Positions 9,332 to 56,375 of a DNA stretch of 64,000 bases are shown here, in pieces. The position numbers and the translations under genes were made by a program. Position 1 is the stretch's first letter; every line of letters starts with the position of its first letter. Origin of the DNA: Eledone cirrhosa (Eukaryota); NCBI GenBank assembly GCA_964016885.1, contig CAXHJY010000226.1, positions 1 through 64,000 on the forward strand, given 5' to 3'. The notes below the pieces were generated by a model. That model made no database searches. It saw only the letters and a list, made by a program, of their open reading frames with translations, and was not told the DNA's origin.

Positions 9332-9381
9332 CATATACATATGTATATATGTATATATGTATATATATATATATATATATT

Positions 9382-9455
<74 letters not shown>

Positions 9456-9516
9456 TATATACATATACATACATATATAATATACATATACATATATATA
9501 TACATATACATATATA

Positions 9517-9548
<32 letters not shown>

Positions 9549-9570
9549 CATTATATATATATATATATAA

Positions 9571-9701
<131 letters not shown>

Positions 9702-9728
9702 CATATATAAATATATACATATATATAT

Positions 9729-9833
<105 letters not shown>

Positions 9834-9922
9834 AAAATTAAAATACTAGAGTTAAACACACTCGTCGTAATATAGAAATGGCAGTATAAGATATAGCTCA
9901 ATGTAATATAACAGAGCCGAAA

Positions 9923-9971
<49 letters not shown>

Positions 9972-9987
9972 CATAAAATATATATAG

Positions 9988-10028
<41 letters not shown>

Positions 10029-10179
10029 TATTTATATACATATATACATATATATATACATATATATATACATATATATATATATATACATATATATATA
10101 CATATATATATATAAACATATATATATATACATATATATATACATATATATACATATATATATATACATATATATATAC

Positions 10180-10210
<31 letters not shown>

Positions 10211-10333
10211 CATATATATATACATATATATATAAATACATATATATATACATATATATATATATACATATATATATACATACATATATATATATATACA
10301 TGGATATATATATATATACATATATATATATAC

Positions 10334-10364
<31 letters not shown>

Positions 10365-10400
10365 AATATATATATATATACACATATATATATATACACA

Positions 10401-10493
<93 letters not shown>

Positions 10494-10509
10494 TTACATA
10501 TATATATAC

Positions 10510-10572
<63 letters not shown>

Positions 10573-10579
10573 TATATAC

Positions 10580-10616
<37 letters not shown>

Positions 10617-10627
10617 CATATATATAT

Positions 10628-11446
10628 AATTAAGTTAAAAATGTACATCCACATATGTATACTGAAATACTAGTATGCATATGAATACACACACGTGTAC
10701 ATATGTAGATGTACTGAGTTTTTCACTGGACACTTTACTGTGAGTGTCCAGCTATTCTGTATGTAAACACACAGACAAACCGAATAGCTGGACACTCACA
10801 GTAAAGTTTCCAGTAAAAAACTCGGTACATCTACATATGTACACGTGTGTGTATTCATATGCATACTAGTATTTCAGTATACATATGTGGATGTACATTT
10901 TTAACTTAATTGTTTAAGCGTCAGTCATACAAAAGTGAGTTACAAACGAAACGAAATTTAATTTCGTTTTGTTATTTGTTTTTATCGTCTCAGCTGAACC
11001 GGTACGTACTCACGCTCTATGCAAATTAGTCTGCCCACTACTAATTTTCATAGAAAAAGCATATAACGATATGTGCTTTTACGATTCTCTAGAAAGGCCG
11101 GAGGATAGGTAAATATTGCTGATGAGATTTAACAACATCGAAACTAGTCCAATATTCTGTCTGGCTTTCTGGAGAATAGAGGAAAGGTGTTTCCTCGAAA
11201 ACCAGTATGACTCTAAAAACCGGTTTGTCTGTGTGTTTATATACAGAATAGCTGGACACTCACAGTAAAGTGTCCAGTGAAAAACTCGGTACATCTCCAT
11301 ATGTACACGTGTGTGTATTCATATGCATACTAGTATTTCAGTATACATATGTGGATGTACATTTTTAACTTAATTGTTTAAGCGACAGTCATACAAAAGT
11401 GAGTTACAAACGAAACGAAATTTAATTTCGTTTCGTTATTTGTTTT
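10628..11446 (+). mobile_element. Diverged family B (467-bp) insertion: short inverted arm (10628-10782) plus ~1.4 direct units
   Basis: Homologous to the 21426-28116 array; orientation switch at ~10782. Confidence 0.85.
11112..11156 (+). ncRNA. Minimal type I hammerhead ribozyme (family B variant, GUC site)
   Basis: aatattg-CTGATGA-gat(ttaacaac)atc-GAAAC-ta-GTC-caatatt. Confidence 0.85.
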
Positions 11447-11505
11447 CATATATATATACATATATATATATATACATATATATATATACATATATATATA
11501 TATAC

Positions 11506-11620
<115 letters not shown>

Positions 11621-11631
11621 CATATATATAC

Positions 11632-11714
<83 letters not shown>

Positions 11715-11750
11715 CATATATATAAATATATATATATATACATATACACA

Positions 11751-11820
<70 letters not shown>

Positions 11821-11822
11821 TA

Positions 11823-11892
<70 letters not shown>

Positions 11893-12131
11893 CACATATA
11901 TATATATACATATTGCAGCAATATGTATATATATATATATACATATATATATACATATTGCTGCGCCAATATGTATATATATATGTATATGTATATATAC
12001 ATATATATATATATAAATATATATATATACATATATATATATACATATATATATATGTACACATATATATACATATATATATATACACATATATATACAT
12101 ATCTTTTCGATTCTGCTGCGCCAATATGTAT

Positions 12132-12218
<87 letters not shown>

Positions 12219-12281
12219 CATATATATATACATATATGTATATATATATACATATATATATACACATATATATATATATAC

Positions 12282-12364
<83 letters not shown>

Positions 12365-12399
12365 CATATATACATATATATATATATACATATATATAC

Positions 12400-12436
<37 letters not shown>

Positions 12437-12645
12437 CATATCTTTTCGATTCTGCTGCGCCTATATGTATATATACATGTATATGTATATATATATATAT
12501 ATTTATGAATATATAAATATGTATATATATATGTATATATATATATATATATGTATATATAAATATGTATATATATATGTATATATATATATATATATGT
12601 ATATCTATATGTATATATATATATGTATATATATATATGTATATA

Positions 12646-12702
<57 letters not shown>

Positions 12703-12713
12703 ATGTATATATG

Positions 12714-12798
<85 letters not shown>

Positions 12799-12803
12799 GT
12801 GTG

Positions 12804-12851
<48 letters not shown>

Positions 12852-12872
12852 CATCTATATATTAATATATAC

Positions 12873-12914
<42 letters not shown>

Positions 12915-12950
12915 ATTTATATATATATATACATATATATATATACATAG

Positions 12951-13028
<78 letters not shown>

Positions 13029-13137
13029 ATATATACATATATATGTATATACATGTATATATATACATATAAACATATATATATAATATACATATATATA
13101 TACACATATATATATATATAGATAGGTATATATACAA

Positions 13138-13204
<67 letters not shown>

Positions 13205-13205
13205 C

Positions 13206-13262
<57 letters not shown>

Positions 13263-13369
13263 CATATACATATATATATATACATATATATATACATATA
13301 TATATACATATATATACATATATATATATACATATATATACATATACATATATATATATACATATATAG

Positions 13370-17845: not shown

Positions 17846-18410
17846 TTAATTAGGTTTATAATATTTAAAGATTTTTCTCAGTTTATGATTACACGATATT
17901 ATTAATTCCTGTCGCTTATTTAATAGGATATCCTTAGATTTCATTATTTCAAAAAGTTCTTGGGAACATAATCTACATTCATTTCTACTATTTTGATAAG
18001 GGGTGGCCCTTTTGAGCACACTCCAGGTCAGGTCATATTCTATATTCCTCTTTCTATAGCTATTTATTATTTGAGCTAGAGATGTTGTATTAGCTAGTGC
18101 GGCATTTTTAAAACTATGTTTGTGGGTATTAAATCTTACCTTAAATTTGTTAGAGGTAGCTCCTATATATGAATAAATTGAGTCCTTAGTGTTAACTTTA
18201 CATTTATATACTATGATATTAACAAGGCAATTTCCTTTTAATGGACAGTTTGCCTTGTTTCTACAGTTACAACTTTTCGTGAATCCTGTATCTGAGGAGA
18301 TATTATGGTTAGTTTGATGTACTGGTGGTATACTCATATATGCATTATAGGCACTTATATTTTGTTTTATGTTTTTGGTTGTTGAGTAGGAGAATTTAAC
18401 CGTTGATCTA
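17846..18410 (-). pseudogene. Penelope-like GIY-YIG endonuclease domain, 5'-truncated (Neptune-like)
   Basis: [20 protein letters not shown]...YIGAT, RFNTH and CRLC..E...LLNKRQE...CNH motifs. Confidence 0.88.
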
Positions 18411-18418
18411 TTTATACA

Positions 18419-18550
<132 letters not shown>

Positions 18551-19780: not shown

Positions 19781-19871
19781 CATATATATACATATATATA
19801 TATATATATACATATATATATACATATATATATATATACATATATATATACATATATATATACATATATAT

Positions 19872-21160
19872 AGTATATAAGGGAGAGGATCAGGAGTGTG
19901 TAACACTCCACTTATCCAATAGGCAGTATAAGGTTAGCTCGATGTCTGAGGACAGAGCCGTAATATAATTAACAACAAAGAACGCTTAGAGCATAGGTAT
20001 ATCTTTACTTGCTGACAGTGTTTCGTCCACACTATAAGTGGGACTCATCAGAGCATAAAGAGTGATTACATATTACACAAGCAATAACAAATCCAAGACA
20101 TTGAAGAAATAAAAAATAAACATTGAACAATAAGCATCGAAAAATAAGAGGTGCTATCAGTCACAGTTGGGCAGGGTGCTGTTAACATACAAGCATACAC
20201 ATAAGCATGAGCACCTGCATGCAACCACGCAACAGGCAGCCATATGCAACACATATAGTATAGACTAATACAAATAACATATCATGGACGAGTATGCAAA
20301 AGCTAAGAGATGAATGGTGGATATACAATGGGTAAAAATACAATGGGTAAAAGTAAGATAAACAAAGGATAAAAATAGATTAACCATAGATAAAAAATAT
20401 AGATATACCATAGATGAAAAATAGATTAACCATGGATAAGAGATAGAGAATAGATAAGGAATAGACAAGAATAGATAAGATAGATAGGAGAAGATAAAAA
20501 TAGATGAAAAATAGACAAATAATATATATAAAAAATATAAAAAATATATATAAAATATACAGATAATAGAGATAAAGGGTAAAGAATAAAATAAAATAAA
20601 ATAAAATTATATAAAATAAAATACAATGAAATAAAATAAAATAAAGTAAAGTGAGATAAGATATATATTTTTTGAATATATTTCTTGAATATATCAGGGG
20701 CACACGAACGCCTTAAGTGTTACAGTTATCCATATCACAACAATCAAATGCTCAAATGAGATTTATAATCAACTGGTGCCATGTCCACACTCGATTGAGT
20801 TGACCATTGCAATGGAGACATCCCAGGTTGGGCAGTCACATAAGTTCACACTCGAAAGTCACGGGTGTGCATTCACACAGTTGAGCGGTGGGGCAATCAC
20901 AAAAGGTTCACACTCGGGCGGGAATCCATTGGTCAACAGAGGTATATCCACATCACTAGCAAGGACGTATGCAAGGAAGGTAGGTAAATTCACATGCAGC
21001 AGCAGGAACATCCATGGGCAGATAACTGAGTGTCACGAAGTCACAAGGTAGCAAGCAAAATCGTTTACATCAACATGAACATCAAGAGGCAGATAAGTGG
21101 GCCGAAAGCAAGCAAGTGCAGGTGGGGAAGAGATGCATGTCCACACGTGTAGTCGCCCGA
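19872..21160 (-). mobile_element. HHR-bearing pLTR-like element (family E) with an unassigned upstream segment
   Basis: Homologous, inverted, to 50120-50862; HHR at 20003-20060. Confidence 0.7.
20003..20060 (-). ncRNA. Minimal type I hammerhead (family E)
   Basis: ctttatgct-CTGATGA-gtcc(cacttatagtgt)ggac-GAAAC-act-GTC-agca-agtaaag. Confidence 0.85.
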
Positions 21161-21185
21161 TATATGTATATACATATATATATAC

Positions 21186-21246
<61 letters not shown>

Positions 21247-21425: not shown

Positions 21426-23261
21426 ATAAAAACAAATAACGAAACGAAATTAAATTTTGTTTCATTTGTAACTCACTTTTGTATGACTGACGCTTAAACA
21501 ATTAAGTTAAAGATGTACATCCATATATGTATACTGAAATACTAGTATGTATATGAATACACACACGTATACATATGTAGATGTACCAAGTTTTTTCACT
21601 GGTCACTTTACTGTGAGTGGCCAGCTATTCTGTATGTAAACACACAGACAAACCGGTTTTTAGAGTCATACTGGTTTTTGAGGAAACACCTTTCCTCTAT
21701 TCTCCAGAAAGCCAGACAAGGAATATTGAACTAGTTTCGTTGTTGTTACAACTCATCAGCAATATTTACCTATCTTCCGGCCTCTCTAGAGAATCGTAAA
21801 AGCACATATCGTTATATGCTTTTTCTATGAAAATTAGTAGTGGGCATACTAATTTGCATAGAGTGTGAGTAAGTACCGGTTCAACGGAGACGATAAAAAC
21901 AAATAACGAAACGAAATTAAATTTTGTTTCATTTGTAACTCACTTTTGTATGACTGACGCTTAAACAATTAAGTTAAAGATGTACATCCATATATGTATA
22001 CTGAAATACTAGTATGTATATGAATACACACACGTATACATATGTAGATGTACCAAGTTTTTTCACTGGTCACTTTACTGTGAGTGGCCAGCTATTCTGT
22101 ATGTAAACACACAGACAAACCGGTTTTTAGAGTCATACTGGTTTTTGAGGAAACACCTTTCCTCTATTCTCCAGAAAGCCAGACAAGGAATATTGAACTA
22201 GTTTCGTTGTTGTTACAACTCATCAGCAATATTTACCTATCTTCCGGCCTCTCTAGAGAATCGTAAAAGCACATATCGTTATATGCTTTTTCTATGAAAA
22301 TTAGTAGTGGGCATACTAATTTGCATAGAGTGTGAGTAAGTACCGGTTCAACGGAGACGATAAAAACAAATAACGAAACGAAATTAAATTTTGTTTCATT
22401 TGTAACTCACTTTTGTATGACTGACGCTTAAACAATTAAGTTAAAGATGTACATCCATATATGTATACTGAAATACTAGTATGTATATGAATACACACAC
22501 GTATACATATGTAGATGTACCAAGTTTTTTCACTGGTCACTTTACTGTGAGTGGCCAGCTATTCTGTATGTAAACACACAGACAAACCGGTTTTTAGAGT
22601 CATACTGGTTTTTGAGGAAACACCTTTCCTCTATTCTCCAGAAAGCCAGACAAGGAATATTGAACTAGTTTCGTTGTTGTTACAACTCATCAGCAATATT
22701 TACCTATCTTCCGGCCTCTCTAGAGAATCGTAAAAGCACATATCGTTATATGCTTTTTCTATGAAAATTAGTAGTGGGCATACTAATTTGCATAGAGTGT
22801 GAGTAAGTACCGGTTCAACGGAGACGATAAAAACAAATAACGAAACGAAATTAAATTTTGTTTCATTTGTAACTCACTTTTGTATGACTGACGCTTAAAC
22901 AATTAAGTTAAAGATGTACATCCATATATGTATACTGAAATACTAGTATGTATATGAATACACACACGTATACATATGTAGATGTACCAAGTTTTTTCAC
23001 TGGTCACTTTACTGTGAGTGGCCAGCTATTCTGTATGTAAACACACAGACAAACCGGTTTTTAGAGTCATACTGGTTTTTGAGGAAACACCTTTCCTCTA
23101 TTCTCCAGAAAGCCAGACAAGGAATATTGAACTAGTTTCGTTGTTGTTACAACTCATCAGCAATATTTACCTATCTTCCGGCCTCTCTAGAGAATCGTAA
23201 AAGCACATATCGTTATATGCTTTTTCTATGAAAATTAGTAGTGGGCATACTAATTTGCATA
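21426..23261 (-). repeat. 467-bp HHR satellite, left arm (3.9 units; HHRs at 21722, 22189, 22656, 23123)
   Basis: Exact 467-bp period, also visible in the ORF track; HHR on the minus strand. Confidence 0.95.
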
Positions 23262-26200
23262 CTCAAAAACCAGTATGACTCTAAAAACCGGTTTGTCTGT
23301 GTGTTTACATACAGAATAGCTGGCCACTCACAGTAAAGTGACCAGTGAAAAAACTTGGTACATCTACATATGTATACGTGTGTGTATTCATATACATACT
23401 AGTATTTCAGTATACATATATGGATGTACATCTTTAACTTAATTGTTTAAGCGTCAGTCATACAAAAGTGAGTTACAAATGAAACAAAATTTAATTTCGT
23501 TTCGTTATTTGTTTTTATCGTCTCCGTTGAACCGGTACTTACTCACACTCTATGCAAATTAGTATGCCCACTACTAATTTTCATAGAAAAAGCATATAAC
23601 GATATGTGCTTTTACGATTCTCTAGAGAGGCCGGAAGATAGGTAAATATTGCTGATGAGTTGTAACAACAACGAAACTAGTTCAATATTCCTTGTCTGGC
23701 TTTCTGGAGAATAGAGGAAAGGTGTTTCCTCAAAAACCAGTATGACTCTAAAAACCGGTTTGTCTGTGTGTTTACATACAGAATAGCTGGCCACTCACAG
23801 TAAAGTGACCAGTGAAAAAACTTGGTACATCTACATATGTATACGTGTGTGTATTCATATACATACTAGTATTTCAGTATACATATATGGATGTACATCT
23901 TTAACTTAATTGTTTAAGCGTCAGTCATACAAAAGTGAGTTACAAATGAAACAAAATTTAATTTCGTTTCGTTATTTGTTTTTATCGTCTCCGTTGAACC
24001 GGTACTTACTCACACTCTATGCAAATTAGTATGCCCACTACTAATTTTCATAGAAAAAGCATATAACGATATGTGCTTTTACGATTCTCTAGAGAGGCCG
24101 GAAGATAGGTAAATATTGCTGATGAGTTGTAACAACAACGAAACTAGTTCAATATTCCTTGTCTGGCTTTCTGGAGAATAGAGGAAAGGTGTTTCCTCAA
24201 AAACCAGTATGACTCTAAAAACCGGTTTGTCTGTGTGTTTACATACAGAATAGCTGGCCACTCACAGTAAAGTGACCAGTGAAAAAACTTGGTACATCTA
24301 CATATGTATACGTGTGTGTATTCATATACATACTAGTATTTCAGTATACATATATGGATGTACATCTTTAACTTAATTGTTTAAGCGTCAGTCATACAAA
24401 AGTGAGTTACAAATGAAACAAAATTTAATTTCGTTTCGTTATTTGTTTTTATCGTCTCCGTTGAACCGGTACTTACTCACACTCTATGCAAATTAGTATG
24501 CCCACTACTAATTTTCATAGAAAAAGCATATAACGATATGTGCTTTTACGATTCTCTAGAGAGGCCGGAAGATAGGTAAATATTGCTGATGAGTTGTAAC
24601 AACAACGAAACTAGTTCAATATTCCTTGTCTGGCTTTCTGGAGAATAGAGGAAAGGTGTTTCCTCAAAAACCAGTATGACTCTAAAAACCGGTTTGTCTG
24701 TGTGTTTACATACAGAATAGCTGGCCACTCACAGTAAAGTGACCAGTGAAAAAACTTGGTACATCTACATATGTATACGTGTGTGTATTCATATACATAC
24801 TAGTATTTCAGTATACATATATGGATGTACATCTTTAACTTAATTGTTTAAGCGTCAGTCATACAAAAGTGAGTTACAAATGAAACAAAATTTAATTTCG
24901 TTTCGTTATTTGTTTTTATCGTCTCCGTTGAACCGGTACTTACTCACACTCTATGCAAATTAGTATGCCCACTACTAATTTTCATAGAAAAAGCATATAA
25001 CGATATGTGCTTTTACGATTCTCTAGAGAGGCCGGAAGATAGGTAAATATTGCTGATGAGTTGTAACAACAACGAAACTAGTTCAATATTCCTTGTCTGG
25101 CTTTCTGGAGAATAGAGGAAAGGTGTTTCCTCAAAAACCAGTATGACTCTAAAAACCGGTTTGTCTGTGTGTTTACATACAGAATAGCTGGCCACTCACA
25201 GTAAAGTGACCAGTGAAAAAACTTGGTACATCTACATATGTATACGTGTGTGTATTCATATACATACTAGTATTTCAGTATACATATATGGATGTACATC
25301 TTTAACTTAATTGTTTAAGCGTCAGTCATACAAAAGTGAGTTACAAATGAAACAAAATTTAATTTCGTTTCGTTATTTGTTTTTATCGTCTCCGTTGAAC
25401 CGGTACTTACTCACACTCTATGCAAATTAGTATGCCCACTACTAATTTTCATAGAAAAAGCATATAACGATATGTGCTTTTACGATTCTCTAGAGAGGCC
25501 GGAAGATAGGTAAATATTGCTGATGAGTTGTAACAACAACGAAACTAGTTCAATATTCCTTGTCTGGCTTTCTGGAGAATAGAGGAAAGGTGTTTCCTCA
25601 AAAACCAGTATGACTCTAAAAACCGGTTTGTCTGTGTGTTTACATACAGAATAGCTGGCCACTCACAGTAAAGTGACCAGTGAAAAAACTTGGTACATCT
25701 ACATATGTATACGTGTGTGTATTCATATACATACTAGTATTTCAGTATACATATATGGATGTACATCTTTAACTTAATTGTTTAAGCGTCAGTCATACAA
25801 AAGTGAGTTACAAATGAAACAAAATTTAATTTCGTTTCGTTATTTGTTTTTATCGTCTCCGTTGAACCGGTACTTACTCACACTCTATGCAAATTAGTAT
25901 GCCCACTACTAATTTTCATAGAAAAAGCATATAACGATATGTGCTTTTACGATTCTCTAGAGAGGCCGGAAGATAGGTAAATATTGCTGATGAGTTGTAA
26001 CAACAACGAAACTAGTTCAATATTCCTTGTCTGGCTTTCTGGAGAATAGAGGAAAGGTGTTTCCTCAAAAACCAGTATGACTCTAAAAACCGGTTTGTCT
26101 GTGTGTTTACATACAGAATAGCTGGCCACTCACAGTAAAGTGACCAGTGAAAAAACTTGGTACATCTACATATGTATACGTGTGTGTATTCATATACATA

Positions 26201-28116
26201 CTAGTATTTCAGTATACATATATGGATGTACATCTTTAACTTAATTGTTTAAGCGTCAGTCATACAAAAGTGAGTTACAAATGAAACAAAATTTAATTTC
26301 GTTTCGTTATTTGTTTTTATCGTCTCCGTTGAACCGGTACTTACTCACACTCTATGCAAATTAGTATGCCCACTACTAATTTTCATAGAAAAAGCATATA
26401 ACGATATGTGCTTTTACGATTCTCTAGAGAGGCCGGAAGATAGGTAAATATTGCTGATGAGTTGTAACAACAACGAAACTAGTTCAATATTCCTTGTCTG
26501 GCTTTCTGGAGAATAGAGGAAAGGTGTTTCCTCAAAAACCAGTATGACTCTAAAAACCGGTTTGTCTGTGTGTTTACATACAGAATAGCTGGCCACTCAC
26601 AGTAAAGTGACCAGTGAAAAAACTTGGTACATCTACATATGTATACGTGTGTGTATTCATATACATACTAGTATTTCAGTATACATATATGGATGTACAT
26701 CTTTAACTTAATTGTTTAAGCGTCAGTCATACAAAAGTGAGTTACAAATGAAACAAAATTTAATTTCGTTTCGTTATTTGTTTTTATCGTCTCCGTTGAA
26801 CCGGTACTTACTCACACTCTATGCAAATTAGTATGCCCACTACTAATTTTCATAGAAAAAGCATATAACGATATGTGCTTTTACGATTCTCTAGAGAGGC
26901 CGGAAGATAGGTAAATATTGCTGATGAGTTGTAACAACAACGAAACTAGTTCAATATTCCTTGTCTGGCTTTCTGGAGAATAGAGGAAAGGTGTTTCCTC
27001 AAAAACCAGTATGACTCTAAAAACCGGTTTGTCTGTGTGTTTACATACAGAATAGCTGGCCACTCACAGTAAAGTGACCAGTGAAAAAACTTGGTACATC
27101 TACATATGTATACGTGTGTGTATTCATATACATACTAGTATTTCAGTATACATATATGGATGTACATCTTTAACTTAATTGTTTAAGCGTCAGTCATACA
27201 AAAGTGAGTTACAAATGAAACAAAATTTAATTTCGTTTCGTTATTTGTTTTTATCGTCTCCGTTGAACCGGTACTTACTCACACTCTATGCAAATTAGTA
27301 TGCCCACTACTAATTTTCATAGAAAAAGCATATAACGATATGTGCTTTTACGATTCTCTAGAGAGGCCGGAAGATAGGTAAATATTGCTGATGAGTTGTA
27401 ACAACAACGAAACTAGTTCAATATTCCTTGTCTGGCTTTCTGGAGAATAGAGGAAAGGTGTTTCCTCAAAAACCAGTATGACTCTAAAAACCGGTTTGTC
27501 TGTGTGTTTACATACAGAATAGCTGGCCACTCACAGTAAAGTGACCAGTGAAAAAACTTGGTACATCTACATATGTATACGTGTGTGTATTCATATACAT
27601 ACTAGTATTTCAGTATACATATATGGATGTACATCTTTAACTTAATTGTTTAAGCGTCAGTCATACAAAAGTGAGTTACAAATGAAACAAAATTTAATTT
27701 CGTTTCGTTATTTGTTTTTATCGTCTCCGTTGAACCGGTACTTACTCACACTCTATGCAAATTAGTATGCCCACTACTAATTTTCATAGAAAAAGCATAT
27801 AACGATATGTGCTTTTACGATTCTCTAGAGAGGCCGGAAGATAGGTAAATATTGCTGATGAGTTGTAACAACAACGAAACTAGTTCAATATTCCTTGTCT
27901 GGCTTTCTGGAGAATAGAGGAAAGGTGTTTCCTCAAAAACCAGTATGACTCTAAAAACCGGTTTGTCTGTGTGTTTACATACAGAATAGCTGGCCACTCA
28001 CAGTAAAGTGACCAGTGAAAAAACTTGGTACATCTACATATGTATACGTGTGTGTATTCATATACATACTAGTATTTCAGTATACATATATGGATGTACA
28101 TCTTTAACTTAATTGT
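23262..28116 (+). repeat. 467-bp HHR satellite, right arm (10.4 units; HHRs at 23645+467n, n=0-9)
   Basis: Reverse complement of the left-arm unit with a 467-bp period. Confidence 0.95.
23645..23689 (+). ncRNA. Minimal type I hammerhead (family B, representative of 14 copies)
   Basis: aatattg-CTGATGA-gttg(taacaa)caac-GAAAC-ta-GTT-caatatt; stem III is the palindrome aactagtt. Confidence 0.88.
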
Positions 28117-28154
28117 ATATATATATATATATATATATACATATATATATGTAC

Positions 28155-30289: not shown

Positions 30290-30324
<35 letters not shown>

Positions 30325-30340
30325 CATATAAATATATATT

Positions 30341-30688
30341 GATATTGTTATACTTTGGGAGGGTCATGTTGCCAATAAGAAACACACACAGAAACAAAAT
30401 GGCGTAGGATAGAAGAAAGGAAAGGCACAGAAACAAAGAAAGGAATCCCCAGTCACTGAAGAGGTCACAGAGTGTGTGACGAAAGGACTATGACTATATA
30501 TAAACAACTATCTGGTTGTGGAACCAACCAACCAACCAGAAATTTATAGGTTTGTAAATTTATAAATTTATAAATATATAATAAATTGAAGTGAAATCAA
30601 CTGGTGCGTGTGTTTCTTATTGGCAACATGACCCTCCCAAAGTATAACAATATCGGTTTCAACACACGATTTCAATTAAAGAATCTTA
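30341..30688 (+). mobile_element. ~345-bp mini element (family F): 47-bp inverted repeats, 3' tail and internal HHR at 30451-30495; further copies at 32390, 40347, 42633, 44937, 48524 and 52768
   Basis: gatattgttatactttgggagggtcatgttgccaataagaaacacac at 30341 with its reverse complement at 30608-30654; agtca-CTGAAGA-g-gtcaca(gagtg)tgtgac-GAAA-ggac-TA-tgact. Confidence 0.8.
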
Positions 30689-30727
30689 TATAGATACATA
30701 TATATATATACATATATATATTTATAC

Positions 30728-50071: not shown

Positions 50072-50102
<31 letters not shown>

Positions 50103-50119
50103 CATATATATATATAATA

Positions 50120-50862
50120 TAATAAATTTATTTAATTACATTTAATTACATTTAATTATACATTTAATTATATCTTATATTATATTATTTTAATTTAGTC
50201 TATGTTATTTGATTTTAGTTTACCTTATTTTATCTTATTTTACGATTATATTATATTATGTTCTATGTATATAATTTTTAATTTTTAATTTTATATTATT
50301 TTATCTCATTCCTTACCCTATATTTTATATGTAAGTTTGTTATGTATTTCTTTGTATTTCTTTTTATATATATTATAAGTCTGTTTTTCACCTATTTTTT
50401 ACCTATTTTTTACCTACTCTTACCTAATCCCATTATCTTATCTACTCTTGTCTGTTCTCTTATCCATGTGTCTACTCTTGTCTGTTCTCTTATCCATGTG
50501 TATGCTTGTATGTAACTATATGTTGACAGCACCCCGCCCAACTGTGACTGATAGCACCCCTTATTTTTATTTTTATTTTTACTTTTATTTTTATTCTTAT
50601 CCTCTATCGTCTATTATTACCTTTCATTCTTCAATGTCTTGGATTTGTTATTGCTTGTATGGTATGTAATTAACCTTTATGCTCTGATGAGTCCCACTTA
50701 TAATGCGGATGAAACAATGTTAGCAAGTAAAGATATGCATATGCTATAAGCGTTCTTTGTTATTTATTAATTATATTACGGCTCTGTCCTCAGACATTGA
50801 GCTAACCTCATACTGCCTGCTGGATAAGTGGAGTGTTATACACCCCTGATCCTTTCCCTAGC
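50120..50862 (+). mobile_element. Family E pLTR-like copy with HHR at 50675-50732
   Basis: tgct-CTGATGA-gtcc(cacttataatgc)ggat-GAAAC-aat-GTT-agca; homologous to 19872-20200. Confidence 0.75.
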
Positions 50863-50894
50863 ATACATATATATATATACATATATATATATAC

Positions 50895-50934
<40 letters not shown>

Positions 50935-51310
50935 GGAAAGTTATATTTAAATTGTTGGGTTACAACTAGTAAATATTTATAACTGATATAAAAGCACTCA
51001 ACAAGTATTTGGAGTATATTTACGATATTAAATAAATGGAAACTATATTTATAAAACCATATTTATTTCATTATATATATTTCAGGGATAACATATTAAC
51101 AATATGTTATGCCTTCTTCAGACAAAATACAATATAGACAGTTTTATAGATAAACAGATTTGACATACCGTTCAACATCGACTTGAACGGTATGTCAAAT
51201 CTATTTATCTATAAAACTGTCTATATTGTATTTTGTCTGAAGAAGGCATAACATATTGTTAATATGTTATCCCTGAAAAATTTAAATATAGTTTCCATTT
51301 ATTTAATATC

Positions 51311-51351
<41 letters not shown>

Positions 51352-54095: not shown

Positions 54096-54664
54096 AATAT
54101 AAATACATATACACATATATGTGTACATAGACACATACATACACACTAATATACACTCGTACAAAAATATACATACATGCAAAGAGAAAAGCGTGCTAAT
54201 TGTAATATGGCAAAAAGAAGGTAAAGTAACATTGTAGTAGTGAAATGAGAAAAACTAGGATCTAGGATCAAATGATTGCAGCAGCTGAGAAGGAGTAAGA
54301 TTGTTGGTAGATGAGGTATTTACAGACTATTGTGTGGTATAGACTTGTGAAGGAAATAGTATACTTAATGAATATATATTTTTTTTGTGGGTAGTAGGTA
54401 TCCTAATTTAAAGCTATGTTATGTTGGTTCGATTCACGGAGGTTTGAATCTTATGAATTTAGTGGCTATTCTATGCCTGCAGAAGATAGATCTTTCTAAC
54501 TTATTATTAAGTAGTCTTTTAACATTTCTAAGGATATACAATAGCTCAAGATCACACAGCCCGCAATAGGACATACCTGTACTATAGGTTTTAGCAGCCG
54601 ACAACTTCGACCAGTTGATAGTGTAGCTAGCGTTGCTGTCCTTCAATTCCCATATTTTTCTGGC

Positions 54665-55988
54665 GACACGTTACTTATAGCTAGGAACCTAAACAACCAG
54701 AGCTTGGAAAGACTAAGGAAAAATATTAGAATATTCTTCAAAAAACTAGGCCTAAGTATTACCTACGAACTAAACCATAAGAAGGTAAATTTTCTAGATG
54801 TAACTCTAAATCTAAATACTGGATTAATAGAACCTTTCCACAAAAATAATGAAAATCTTGCCTACATTAGTTACAACTCAAATCACCCCAAATCCATAAT
54901 TAAATCCATAGCACGTAGTATATCCCTCCGAATATCCCGCCTATCCTCAAACCTAGAAATCTTTAACGAGCATGCTGACTATTATAATGCAGCATTAAGT
55001 AGGGCCGGTCATAAAGATAAACTACAGTATATAGTGAATAAGGACAACATAAACAATCCTAGTAATTTCTACTCCAACCGCTCACATAATAATAAGAATA
55101 GCTTGACTAGACATAGGGTTAGACATGTAACACCTAGAGTAAACGGCCAAAACACTAATAACGTAAACCCTAGAAACAATAGAAGAAACAGACAAAGGAA
55201 ATACCTATGGTTCAACCCAATATTCAACTCCTCTATAAAAACTAGACTGCCCTCTATATTCTTTAAACTAATAGATAAACACTTCCCTATCTCGCATAGA
55301 TATCACAAACTACTCAATAGATCTACTATAAAACTCTCTTTTCAACAGCAGCTAACATAGAATCACACATACGCAAGATCAACCGCAGAAATATCTCAAG
55401 TAAATCAATTGCACCTATACATAAGCACAAACTCATCACAACATCACAACCACAAGCGCATACAAACGCGCAGCAGCAAAACCCCATTGGGCATATATCA
55501 CAACCCACTTATAACAGGGTACTAAATAGGAATGTAAAAGCTGCACATAATAGCGCCTCAAACTGCAACTGTCACCTCCCAGATAGGTGCCCATTGGCGA
55601 ATAGATGTCTCGATTCGAGTCTGGTGTACATGTGCACTGTCATCTCGGGTAACTCCACTTGGATTACATAGGATCCACCGCGGGTTCTTTTAAGAAAAGA
55701 TGGTATGTGCACAGGCACTCGATGAAAAACCGAGCTCTTATGGGTTCCACCACCCTCGCCAGAAAAATATGGGAATTGAAGGACAGCAACGCTAGCTACA
55801 CTATCAACTGGTCGAAGTTGTCGGCTGCTAAAACCTATAGTACAGGTATGTCCTATTGCGGGCTGTGTGATCTTGAGCTATTGTATATCCTTAGAAATGT
55901 TAAAAGACTACTTAATAATAAGTTAGAAAGATCTATCTTCTGCAGGCATAGAATTGCCACTAAATTCATAAGATTCAAACCTCCGTGA
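54665..55988 (+). pseudogene. Penelope-like RT C-terminus, linker and GIY-YIG; 5'-truncated, frameshifts near 55340 and 55658
   Basis: VNFLDVTLNL, SNHP, WFNP, CNC...CP...C, LVY...YIGST and CGLC..E...FCRH motifs. Confidence 0.9.
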
Positions 55989-56326
55989 ATCGAACCAACA
56001 TAACATAGCTTTAAATTAGGATACCTACTACCCACAAAAAAAATATATATTCATTAAGTATACTATTTCCTTCACAAGTCTATACCACACAATAGTCTGT
56101 AAATACCTCATCTACCAACAATCTTACTCCTTCTCAGCTGCTGCAATCATTTGATCCTAGATCCTAGTTTTTCTCATTTCACTACTACAATGTTACTTTA
56201 CCTTCTTTTTGCCATATTACAATTAGCACGCTTTTCTCTTTGCATGTATGTATATTTTTGTACGAGTGTATATTAGTGTGTATGTATGTGTCTATGTACA
56301 CATATATGTGTATATGTATTTATATT

Positions 56327-56375
<49 letters not shown>

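What the first reader, a model, noticed from the sequence alone, without database searches (positions are those of the whole stretch)
10628..11446. Independent, diverged insertion of the same family reuses the same two termini and shows HHR covariation
This copy is also two inverted arms. One arm ends at ...ttaacttaatt and the other runs ~70 nt further to ...ttcgttatttgtttt. These are the same two endpoints as the large array (28116 and 21426), although arm lengths and the inner junction differ. Its HHR stem II is GAU/AUC versus GUUG/CAAC, a compensatory A-U/U-A swap, and it has the canonical GUC site. Fixed outer ends with variable inner junctions point to a defined integration mechanism, not ordinary satellite unequal crossover.
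Basis: partly seen in the sequence, partly recalled or inferred. Interest (0 to 1): 0.8.

Follow-up and report, generated by a model that had tools for sequence, protein, structure and literature searches.

The report
Hammerhead retrozyme with Penelope-type two-arm insertion
This is one copy of a small ribozyme-carrying jumping repeat whose insertions nearly always join two back-to-back partial copies, each ending at one of two fixed points, which is the footprint of Penelope-like retrotransposon enzymes and offers a natural record of how they insert.

Summary
In 58 sampled stretches, 98 of 101 outer ends fall at two sites ~70 nt apart (S, T), against 1 of 101 inner ends; 38 of 40 two-armed loci pair one S with one T. 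A 63%-identical family keeps homologous ends. This is the known Penelope-like element (PLE) signature (inverted truncated copy, one-sided tail, TA target) on a non-LTR retrozyme. Corrections: this copy belongs to the larger subfamily A, the array to a younger subfamily B; the stem II swap is real but one event, and this copy has lost the fourth pair. Best model: a PLE enzyme nicks both strands 12-13 bp apart, primes cDNA from S and from T on the same multimeric or circular RNA, and the truncated ends are end-joined. One locus pairs a retrozyme T arm with an S arm of a young autonomous PLE. The partner, expression and cleavage are unproven. Known kind, useful mechanistic data.

The parts
10617..10628 (+). 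Left copy of a 12-bp target-site duplication (last base shared with the S end)
   Evidence: Read from the junction strings; 14 of 20 informative loci show 12-14 bp
10628..10782 (-). Short arm, 155 nt, 5'-truncated; its 3' (outer) end is the S site
   Evidence: unit positions 183 to 28
10782..11446 (+). Long arm, 1.4 units of a 464-nt unit, 5'-truncated; its 3' (outer) end is the T site
10905..10918 (+). Internal copy of the small hairpin that holds the S site
   Evidence: predicted in folds of A, B and C units
11112..11156 (+). Type I hammerhead: stem I 11112-11118 with 11150-11156, core 11119-11125 and 11140-11143, stem II 11126-11139, palindromic stem III 11143-11148, predicted cut after 11149
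   Evidence: Rfam HH9 at 27.9 bits, E 1.1e-4, below its gathering score of 52; no match at gathering level
11369..11382 (+). S-site hairpin; S ends map to its loop and 3' strand
11376..11446 (+). 71-nt tail between S and T, present at one end only; holds a 13-bp hairpin at 11409-11437
11447..11458 (+). Right copy of the 12-bp target-site duplication
9333..13368 (.). (TA)n-rich microsatellite that received the insertion
21426..23261 (-). Subfamily B array, T arm, 3.9 identical 467-bp units
23262..28119 (+). Subfamily B array, S arm, 10.4 identical 467-bp units

Best explanation
The stretch is one insertion of a non-autonomous, hammerhead-bearing repeat (non-LTR retrozyme) moved by the RT and GIY-YIG endonuclease of a Penelope-like element. 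Shown in the DNA: two divergent arms, both with sense 3' ends outward; two fixed outer ends; scattered inner ends joined with short overlaps or small inserts; a 12-13-bp duplication in AT-rich targets; the same sequence variants in both arms. Inferred: the enzyme binds the structured S-T segment of a multimeric or circular RNA and nicks both target strands 12-13 bp apart. One 3' end primes at T and the other at S, 70 nt upstream in the same unit. Both cDNAs run upstream through the hammerhead site for a variable number of units and stop, and host repair joins the two truncated ends. Hammerhead cleavage as a dimer and circularisation would supply a monomer template. This copy has one hammerhead and is probably inert.
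For: 98 of 101 outer ends at S or T, 1 of 101 inner ends; 38 of 40 two-armed loci are S+T, 16 of 17 in subfamily B alone. Duplications of 12-14 bp in 14 of 20 informative loci; informative matches of 10 bp or more in 49% of 39 true flank pairs against 13% of 650 mismatched pairs. A minority variant is fixed in every unit of both arms in 24 of 44 loci, in one arm only in 0 of 44, and is private or nearly so in 8. Variants lie in register between the arms at L046 and L061. Family C (63% identity) keeps homologous ends, 13 of 14 two-armed insertions S+T by eye. A young autonomous PLE in this genome has the same two-end rule. A purified PLE protein nicks and extends both strands from two internal RNA sites that bound the tail (PMC11167929).
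Against: No autonomous PLE with clear sequence homology was found among three families examined. In vitro the PLE protein showed no strand difference in start site, and hammerhead cleavage was dispensable, so obligate S+T pairing and a circular template are not predicted by that work. Two loci are S+S. L057 and L119 lose register between arms after one to three units, and L040 has repeated variants in one arm only. L036 suggests the arms can come from different RNAs. Subfamily B spreads with a GUU site, and family C lacks the usual first G-C pair of stem II. The loci are best-scoring matches, a small and young-biased sample.
Confidence: 0.8

Rival explanations
1. Same enzyme, but each arm is copied from a separate RNA molecule held by an asymmetric protein dimer; arms look alike because transcripts from one source locus are loaded together.
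For: L036 has a 100%-identical young PLE fragment as its S arm and a retrozyme as its T arm, with a 6-nt overlap and no TA between them. Register between arms breaks at L057 and L119. The PLE protein is predicted to be a dimer (PMC11167929).
Against: 0 of 44 loci have a variant fixed in one arm and absent from the other, although many haplotypes coexist. L036 is the only such locus; none was seen among 40 candidates scored with the chimeric query, and a deletion between two neighbouring insertions could mimic it.
Confidence: 0.3
2. Fold-back or self-priming: one cDNA is made and then copied back on itself, or an antisense template self-primes, giving the inverted arm (proposed for rotifer PLEs).
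For: This copy's inner ends lie about 20 nt apart at a hairpin, and L116 has coincident inner ends. Palindromic junctions led to this model in PMC3846280.
Against: Across 40 loci the inner ends are unrelated (mean circular distance 128 nt, 117 expected if uniform; 4 of 40 within 22 nt). The S arm is longer than the T arm in 11 of 37 loci, including the array, so it cannot be a copy of the T arm.
Confidence: 0.07
3. Ordinary satellite DNA: arrays grow by unequal crossing-over, with inversions and ends set by local breakage in TA repeats.
For: Variants shared by scattered or periodic units inside older arrays (L040, L041, L042, L066) fit later duplication. The 2026 preprint invokes local satellite-like amplification.
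Against: Does not explain two fixed ends, S+T pairing, 12-14-bp duplications, or 99-100% identical arrays on different contigs.
Confidence: 0.03
4. Mobilisation by an apurinic-endonuclease LINE through twin priming, as recalled for L1 5' inversions.
For: The window holds an intact-looking LINE ORF with endonuclease and RT domains at 33786-37526.
Against: No poly(A) or repeat tail. Both arms contain the same 3' region, and T-arm inner ends do not cluster at S as blocked twin priming would give. The two-end rule is shared with a GIY-YIG PLE in this genome.
Confidence: 0.03

Closest known systems
Non-LTR retrozymes of animals (Cervera and de la Pena 2020, PMC7229834, passages; Li, Clavereau and Pollet 2026 preprint 10.64898/2026.07.22.740005, parts 1-3 of 5)
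   Same: Non-coding tandem units of a few hundred bp, low G+C, strongly self-paired, one type I hammerhead per unit, duplications longer than 4 bp, co-existence with PLEs.
   Different: The passages read describe head-to-tail arrays only. 'Inverted' occurs 0 times in the first main text and only in a reference title in the second; 'tail' 0 times in the second. Here arrays are two divergent arms with fixed S and T ends. RNA, circles and cleavage are not shown here.
Endonuclease-containing Penelope-like elements, inverted pLTR and tail structure (Craig 2021 PMC8557442; Arkhipova 2013 PMC3846280; passages)
   Same: Inverted 5'-truncated copy joined head to head, tail at one end only, short duplication, (TA)n target, partial tandems.
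   Different: No ORF. Tail is 71 nt (about 57 nt in family C and in the local PLE) against 30-40 nt reported. Duplication 12-14 bp against 8-10 bp in the rotifer examples. Both arms can be multi-unit, up to about 16 units.
Poseidon element of Anolis, in vitro (Frangieh 2024, PMC11167929, parts 1-2 of 4)
   Same: Both strands nicked and extended in AT-rich DNA; two internal start sites that bound the tail; start sites in a stem-loop; little primer homology; uncleaved RNA is a substrate.
   Different: That work saw no strand difference in start site; here the two arms of one insertion almost always use different sites.
Non-autonomous Chlamys elements such as MRC1 (PMC8557442, passage)
   Same: Non-autonomous PLE derivatives with multi-copy head-to-tail insertions.
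   Different: Those generally share 3' sequence with an autonomous family; none was found here. This family carries a hammerhead.

Membership tests
Non-LTR retrozyme | Tandem non-coding units of a few hundred bp with a type I hammerhead in each | tested here: met
   466/467-bp units, one hammerhead each; this copy has 1.4 units and one hammerhead, short of the two-unit criterion for an 'active' copy in the preprint
Non-LTR retrozyme | Low G+C, highly self-paired unit RNA | tested here: met
   about 34% G+C; folding z-score -8.7 for this copy, -11 to -12 for A, B and C units
Non-LTR retrozyme | Dispersed copies with duplications longer than 4 bp and no LTRs | tested here: met
   695 and 138 first-look candidates; 12-14 bp in 14 of 20 informative loci
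Non-LTR retrozyme | Expressed as linear and circular monomer RNA | tested here: inconclusive
   No RNA holder listed; the runs laid were contigs of unknown kind
Type I hammerhead ribozyme | Conserved core, three stems, NUH cut site | tested here: met
   Core invariant apart from position 7; GUC, GUU, GUA sites; 92% of cells paired, 6 of 16 pairs with double changes. Stem III is 2 bp with a palindrome, the dimer type of PMC4209133. Below Rfam gathering score
Type I hammerhead ribozyme | Self-cleavage | not testable with these tools
   Needs in vitro transcription of monomer and dimer
PLE-mobilised element | Inverted 5'-truncated copy joined head to head | tested here: met
   46 adjacent minus/plus arm pairs
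PLE-mobilised element | Tail present at one end only, bounded by two start sites | tested here: met
   38 of 40 S+T; 71 nt rather than 30-40 nt
PLE-mobilised element | AT-rich or (TA)n target | tested here: met
   flanks printed
PLE-mobilised element | Sequence homology to the pseudo-LTR of an autonomous PLE in the genome | tested here: inconclusive
   None with two families; an 18-of-21 antisense match at the T ends with the third, p about 0.02, duplex energy not significant. Only three of many families were examined
Autonomous PLE | Single ORF with RT and GIY-YIG endonuclease | tested here: not met
   No ORF of 90 aa or more lies within the 464-nt unit; those listed that touch the stretch run on into the TA flanks

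The most novel reading that the evidence does not exclude
PLE integration is an intrinsically asymmetric, two-primer reaction: one enzyme complex cuts both strands 12-13 bp apart and starts one cDNA at each side of a conserved structured RNA element, on one circular template copied as a rolling circle. This would explain inverted arms, the one-sided tail and homogeneous multi-kilobase retrozyme arrays in one step, and the L036 locus would be a caught case of a retrozyme and an autonomous PLE RNA sharing one integration event.
Probability: 0.4. Interest if true: 0.75.

Novelty: new member of a known kind. Interest (0 to 1): 0.5.

Why it matters
How PLEs make inverted arms and a one-sided tail is stated to be unresolved (PMC8557442, PMC11167929), and retrozyme mobilisation by PLEs has rested on co-occurrence and homology in the papers read. 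A young, high-copy family with scorable ends gives numbers that a mechanism must meet: one S plus one T, a 12-13-bp stagger, shared haplotypes in both arms, unrelated inner ends. It also names a candidate enzyme to test. Seven paper searches listed no paper whose title or abstract start reports this for a retrozyme; older subscription papers on Penelope structure are outside the library, and supplements were not read.

Tried and rejected
Rfam at gathering level: no match in the window; miRNA-like hits at E-value level reflect the inverted arms. PLE family of window 17846-18427 as partner: no DNA similarity beyond TA-rich sequence in 30 loci. PLE upstream of the L044 arm as partner or co-insertion: an older family, mostly 85-91% identical, with an unrelated 3' region in 4 loci. 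Base-pairing of the retrozyme tail with the young PLE's T site: duplex energy reached by 194 of 500 shuffles; kept as a weak lead only. More chimeras: none besides L036 among 40 scored of 652 candidates, judged from the table only. Expression: no RNA holder listed; four runs of unknown kind laid as contigs, two giving one unit-length contig, which cannot tell a circle from a tandem array. A first monomer fold included junction letters and was replaced. The automatic duplication finder returned 23 nt for this copy because TA repeats allow slippage; the 12 bp is read at the junctions. Covariation between A and B over the whole unit: 1 double change, 4 single consistent changes, 4 broken pairs, too few to test. 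Helitron-type origin: rejected from recalled knowledge, since those leave no duplication. Earlier scan notes: nothing returned. A planned set of 14 autonomous-PLE loci was not obtained, so the S+T count for that family rests on 5 loci.

Full report
OBSERVATION. The stretch is as described. A minus-strand arm of 155 nt (10628-10782) and a plus-strand arm of 1.4 units (10782-11446) diverge from a junction with one shared base, inside a (TA)n tract. Taking the hammerhead strand as sense, both outer ends are 3' ends. On a 467-position unit they lie at 183 (site S) and about 255 (site T). The array at 21426-28119 has the same two end classes in the opposite order.

FAMILY. The genome (3.0 Gb) holds 695 first-look candidates for this copy and 138 for the array unit; 40 and 38 were scored. 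I fetched 37 stretches around subfamily A matches, plus two extensions, and 20 around B matches. These are best-scoring hits and favour young copies. A (466 bp) and B (467 bp) differ at 19 positions. This copy is 98.0-98.3% identical to 35 A stretches and 93.9-94.9% to 20 B stretches. B arrays are 99-100% identical across contigs. So this is a slightly decayed A copy, and the array is a young B insertion.

ENDS. After dropping one duplicate stretch (L050), a second copy in L049, arms cut by a fetch edge, an internal piece of L047 and a 33-nt piece of L105, 98 of 101 outer ends fall at S (182-189) or T (254-258); 1 of 101 inner ends does. Of 46 adjacent arm pairs, 6 were set aside (2 cut by the fetch edge, 4 with an interrupted or other end). 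Of the other 40, 38 are S+T, 2 are S+S, none T+T (p about 7e-10 against one half); for B alone, whose query held no end, 16 of 17. The S end of L041 was read from the adjoining stretch. Three more loci have a T arm and an S arm of about ten bases, and L119 has an insertion of little more than the tail. Inner ends of the two arms are unrelated, and junctions show mostly 1-3-base overlaps or short inserts, as expected of end-joining (inference). Of 39 loci, 20 have a duplication that is not pure TA, and 14 of these are 12-14 bp, with clear cases in mixed sequence (L053, L059, L102, L104, L111). Contigs of run X1 also run on into (AT)n at both sites; that run may be the same individual.

CONSERVATION. 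A family C, 63% identical and about 420 bp, with 1663 candidates, has ends at the homologous places; by eye 13 of 14 two-armed insertions in 30 loci are S+T and one is T+T. In predicted folds S lies in a small hairpin and T follows a longer hairpin in A, B and C. Of 125 pairs of the A fold aligned to C, 77 are unchanged, 15 change on both sides, 13 on one side and 20 break. The hammerhead is type I with a 2-bp palindromic stem III, the kind that works as a dimer (PMC4209133, passages). In 14 chosen sequences from A-D, 6 of 16 pairs change on both sides and 92% of cells pair, above all 500 shuffles and all slid controls; they descend from about four lineages, so this is supportive, not a significance test. 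B has a GUU site and C a U-U at the base of stem II, so catalytic strength is uncertain.

TEMPLATE. In 24 of 44 two-armed loci a minority variant is fixed in every unit of both arms, in none is it fixed in one arm only, and in 8 it is found in at most two loci. A new variant filling a whole array suggests a monomer bottleneck, as cleavage, circularisation and rolling-circle copying would give (inference; proposed for PLEs in PMC4209133). At L046 and L061 unit-specific variants lie in register in both arms, which puts S and T in the same unit of a mixed multimer. Against a simple picture, L057 and L119 fall out of register, L040 repeats variants in one arm only, and L066 repeats a five-unit block; later duplication or multimer circles could each explain these.

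PARTNER. L036 reads (TA)n, S end of a PLE, its hammerhead and GIY-YIG region on the opposite strand, a 6-nt overlap, then a retrozyme A arm ending at T, (TA)n. That PLE family is young (150 scored matches at 98-100% protein identity) with open frames to 1281 aa. It has RT and C-terminal GIY-YIG features; Pfam support is weak (GIY-YIG E 1.8e-4 on the fragment, nothing on the full ORF). A CX4CxxC motif before the endonuclease fits the Neptune or Nematis description in PMC8557442. It has its own S and T ends about 57 nt apart, S+T in 4 of 5 loci where both ends were visible. It shares no convincing sequence with the retrozyme, and L036 is a single case, so it is a candidate only.

MECHANISM AND RIVALS. 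The DNA fits a staggered double nick with two priming events, one at T and one at S, followed by end-joining. A purified PLE protein does nick and extend both strands from two internal sites that bound the tail (PMC11167929). Fold-back (PMC3846280) predicts close inner ends and an S arm no longer than the T arm; neither holds. Satellite exchange cannot fix the ends. One template against two remains open.

VERDICT. A non-LTR retrozyme family that works like a non-autonomous PLE, with a footprint already described for PLEs and a link already proposed for retrozymes. I did not find the counted S+T rule, the footprint on multi-unit retrozyme arrays or a chimeric insertion in the texts read (searches). 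Supplements of those papers were not read and may show such structures. New member of a known kind; interest 0.5.

Noticed in passing
window 44029-44462, 46519-46946, 50907-51335: Three 99%-identical copies of another hammerhead-like two-armed insertion in (TA)n, one arm about 75 nt longer than the other: the same architecture in an unrelated family.
   Followed up: partly
window 30309-30719 and similar islands to 53145: Short two-armed pseudo-LTR fragments with a hammerhead, of the young PLE family found at L036.
   Followed up: partly
window 17846-18427 (-): C-terminal fragment of a GIY-YIG PLE protein; abundant family, 150 scored matches at 92-100%. No Pfam hit.
   Followed up: yes
window 33786-37526 (-): Uninterrupted 1246-aa LINE ORF with endonuclease, RT and zinc-finger matches.
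   Followed up: no
window 19846-21193 and 50095-50892: Related fragments (79%) each with a hammerhead-like core.
   Followed up: no
window 54117-56348: 550-bp inverted terminal arms, 99.8% identical, around a PLE-like reading frame.
   Followed up: no
L068 560-3001: An unrelated 310-bp hammerhead repeat, also as two divergent tandem arms in (TA)n, about 500 bp from an A array.
   Followed up: no
L119 2282-2365: Minimal insertion: the S-T tail with about eight upstream bases and a few bases of an inverted S end.
   Followed up: partly
window 28116-64000: Long (TA)n with the same small islands repeated about every 2 kb, suggesting block duplication of the microsatellite with its passengers, or assembly trouble.
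   Followed up: no
runs X5 and X6 on window 10817-11343: Runs labelled as two other organisms each hold one unit-length contig of this family at low depth; kind of run unknown.
   Followed up: partly
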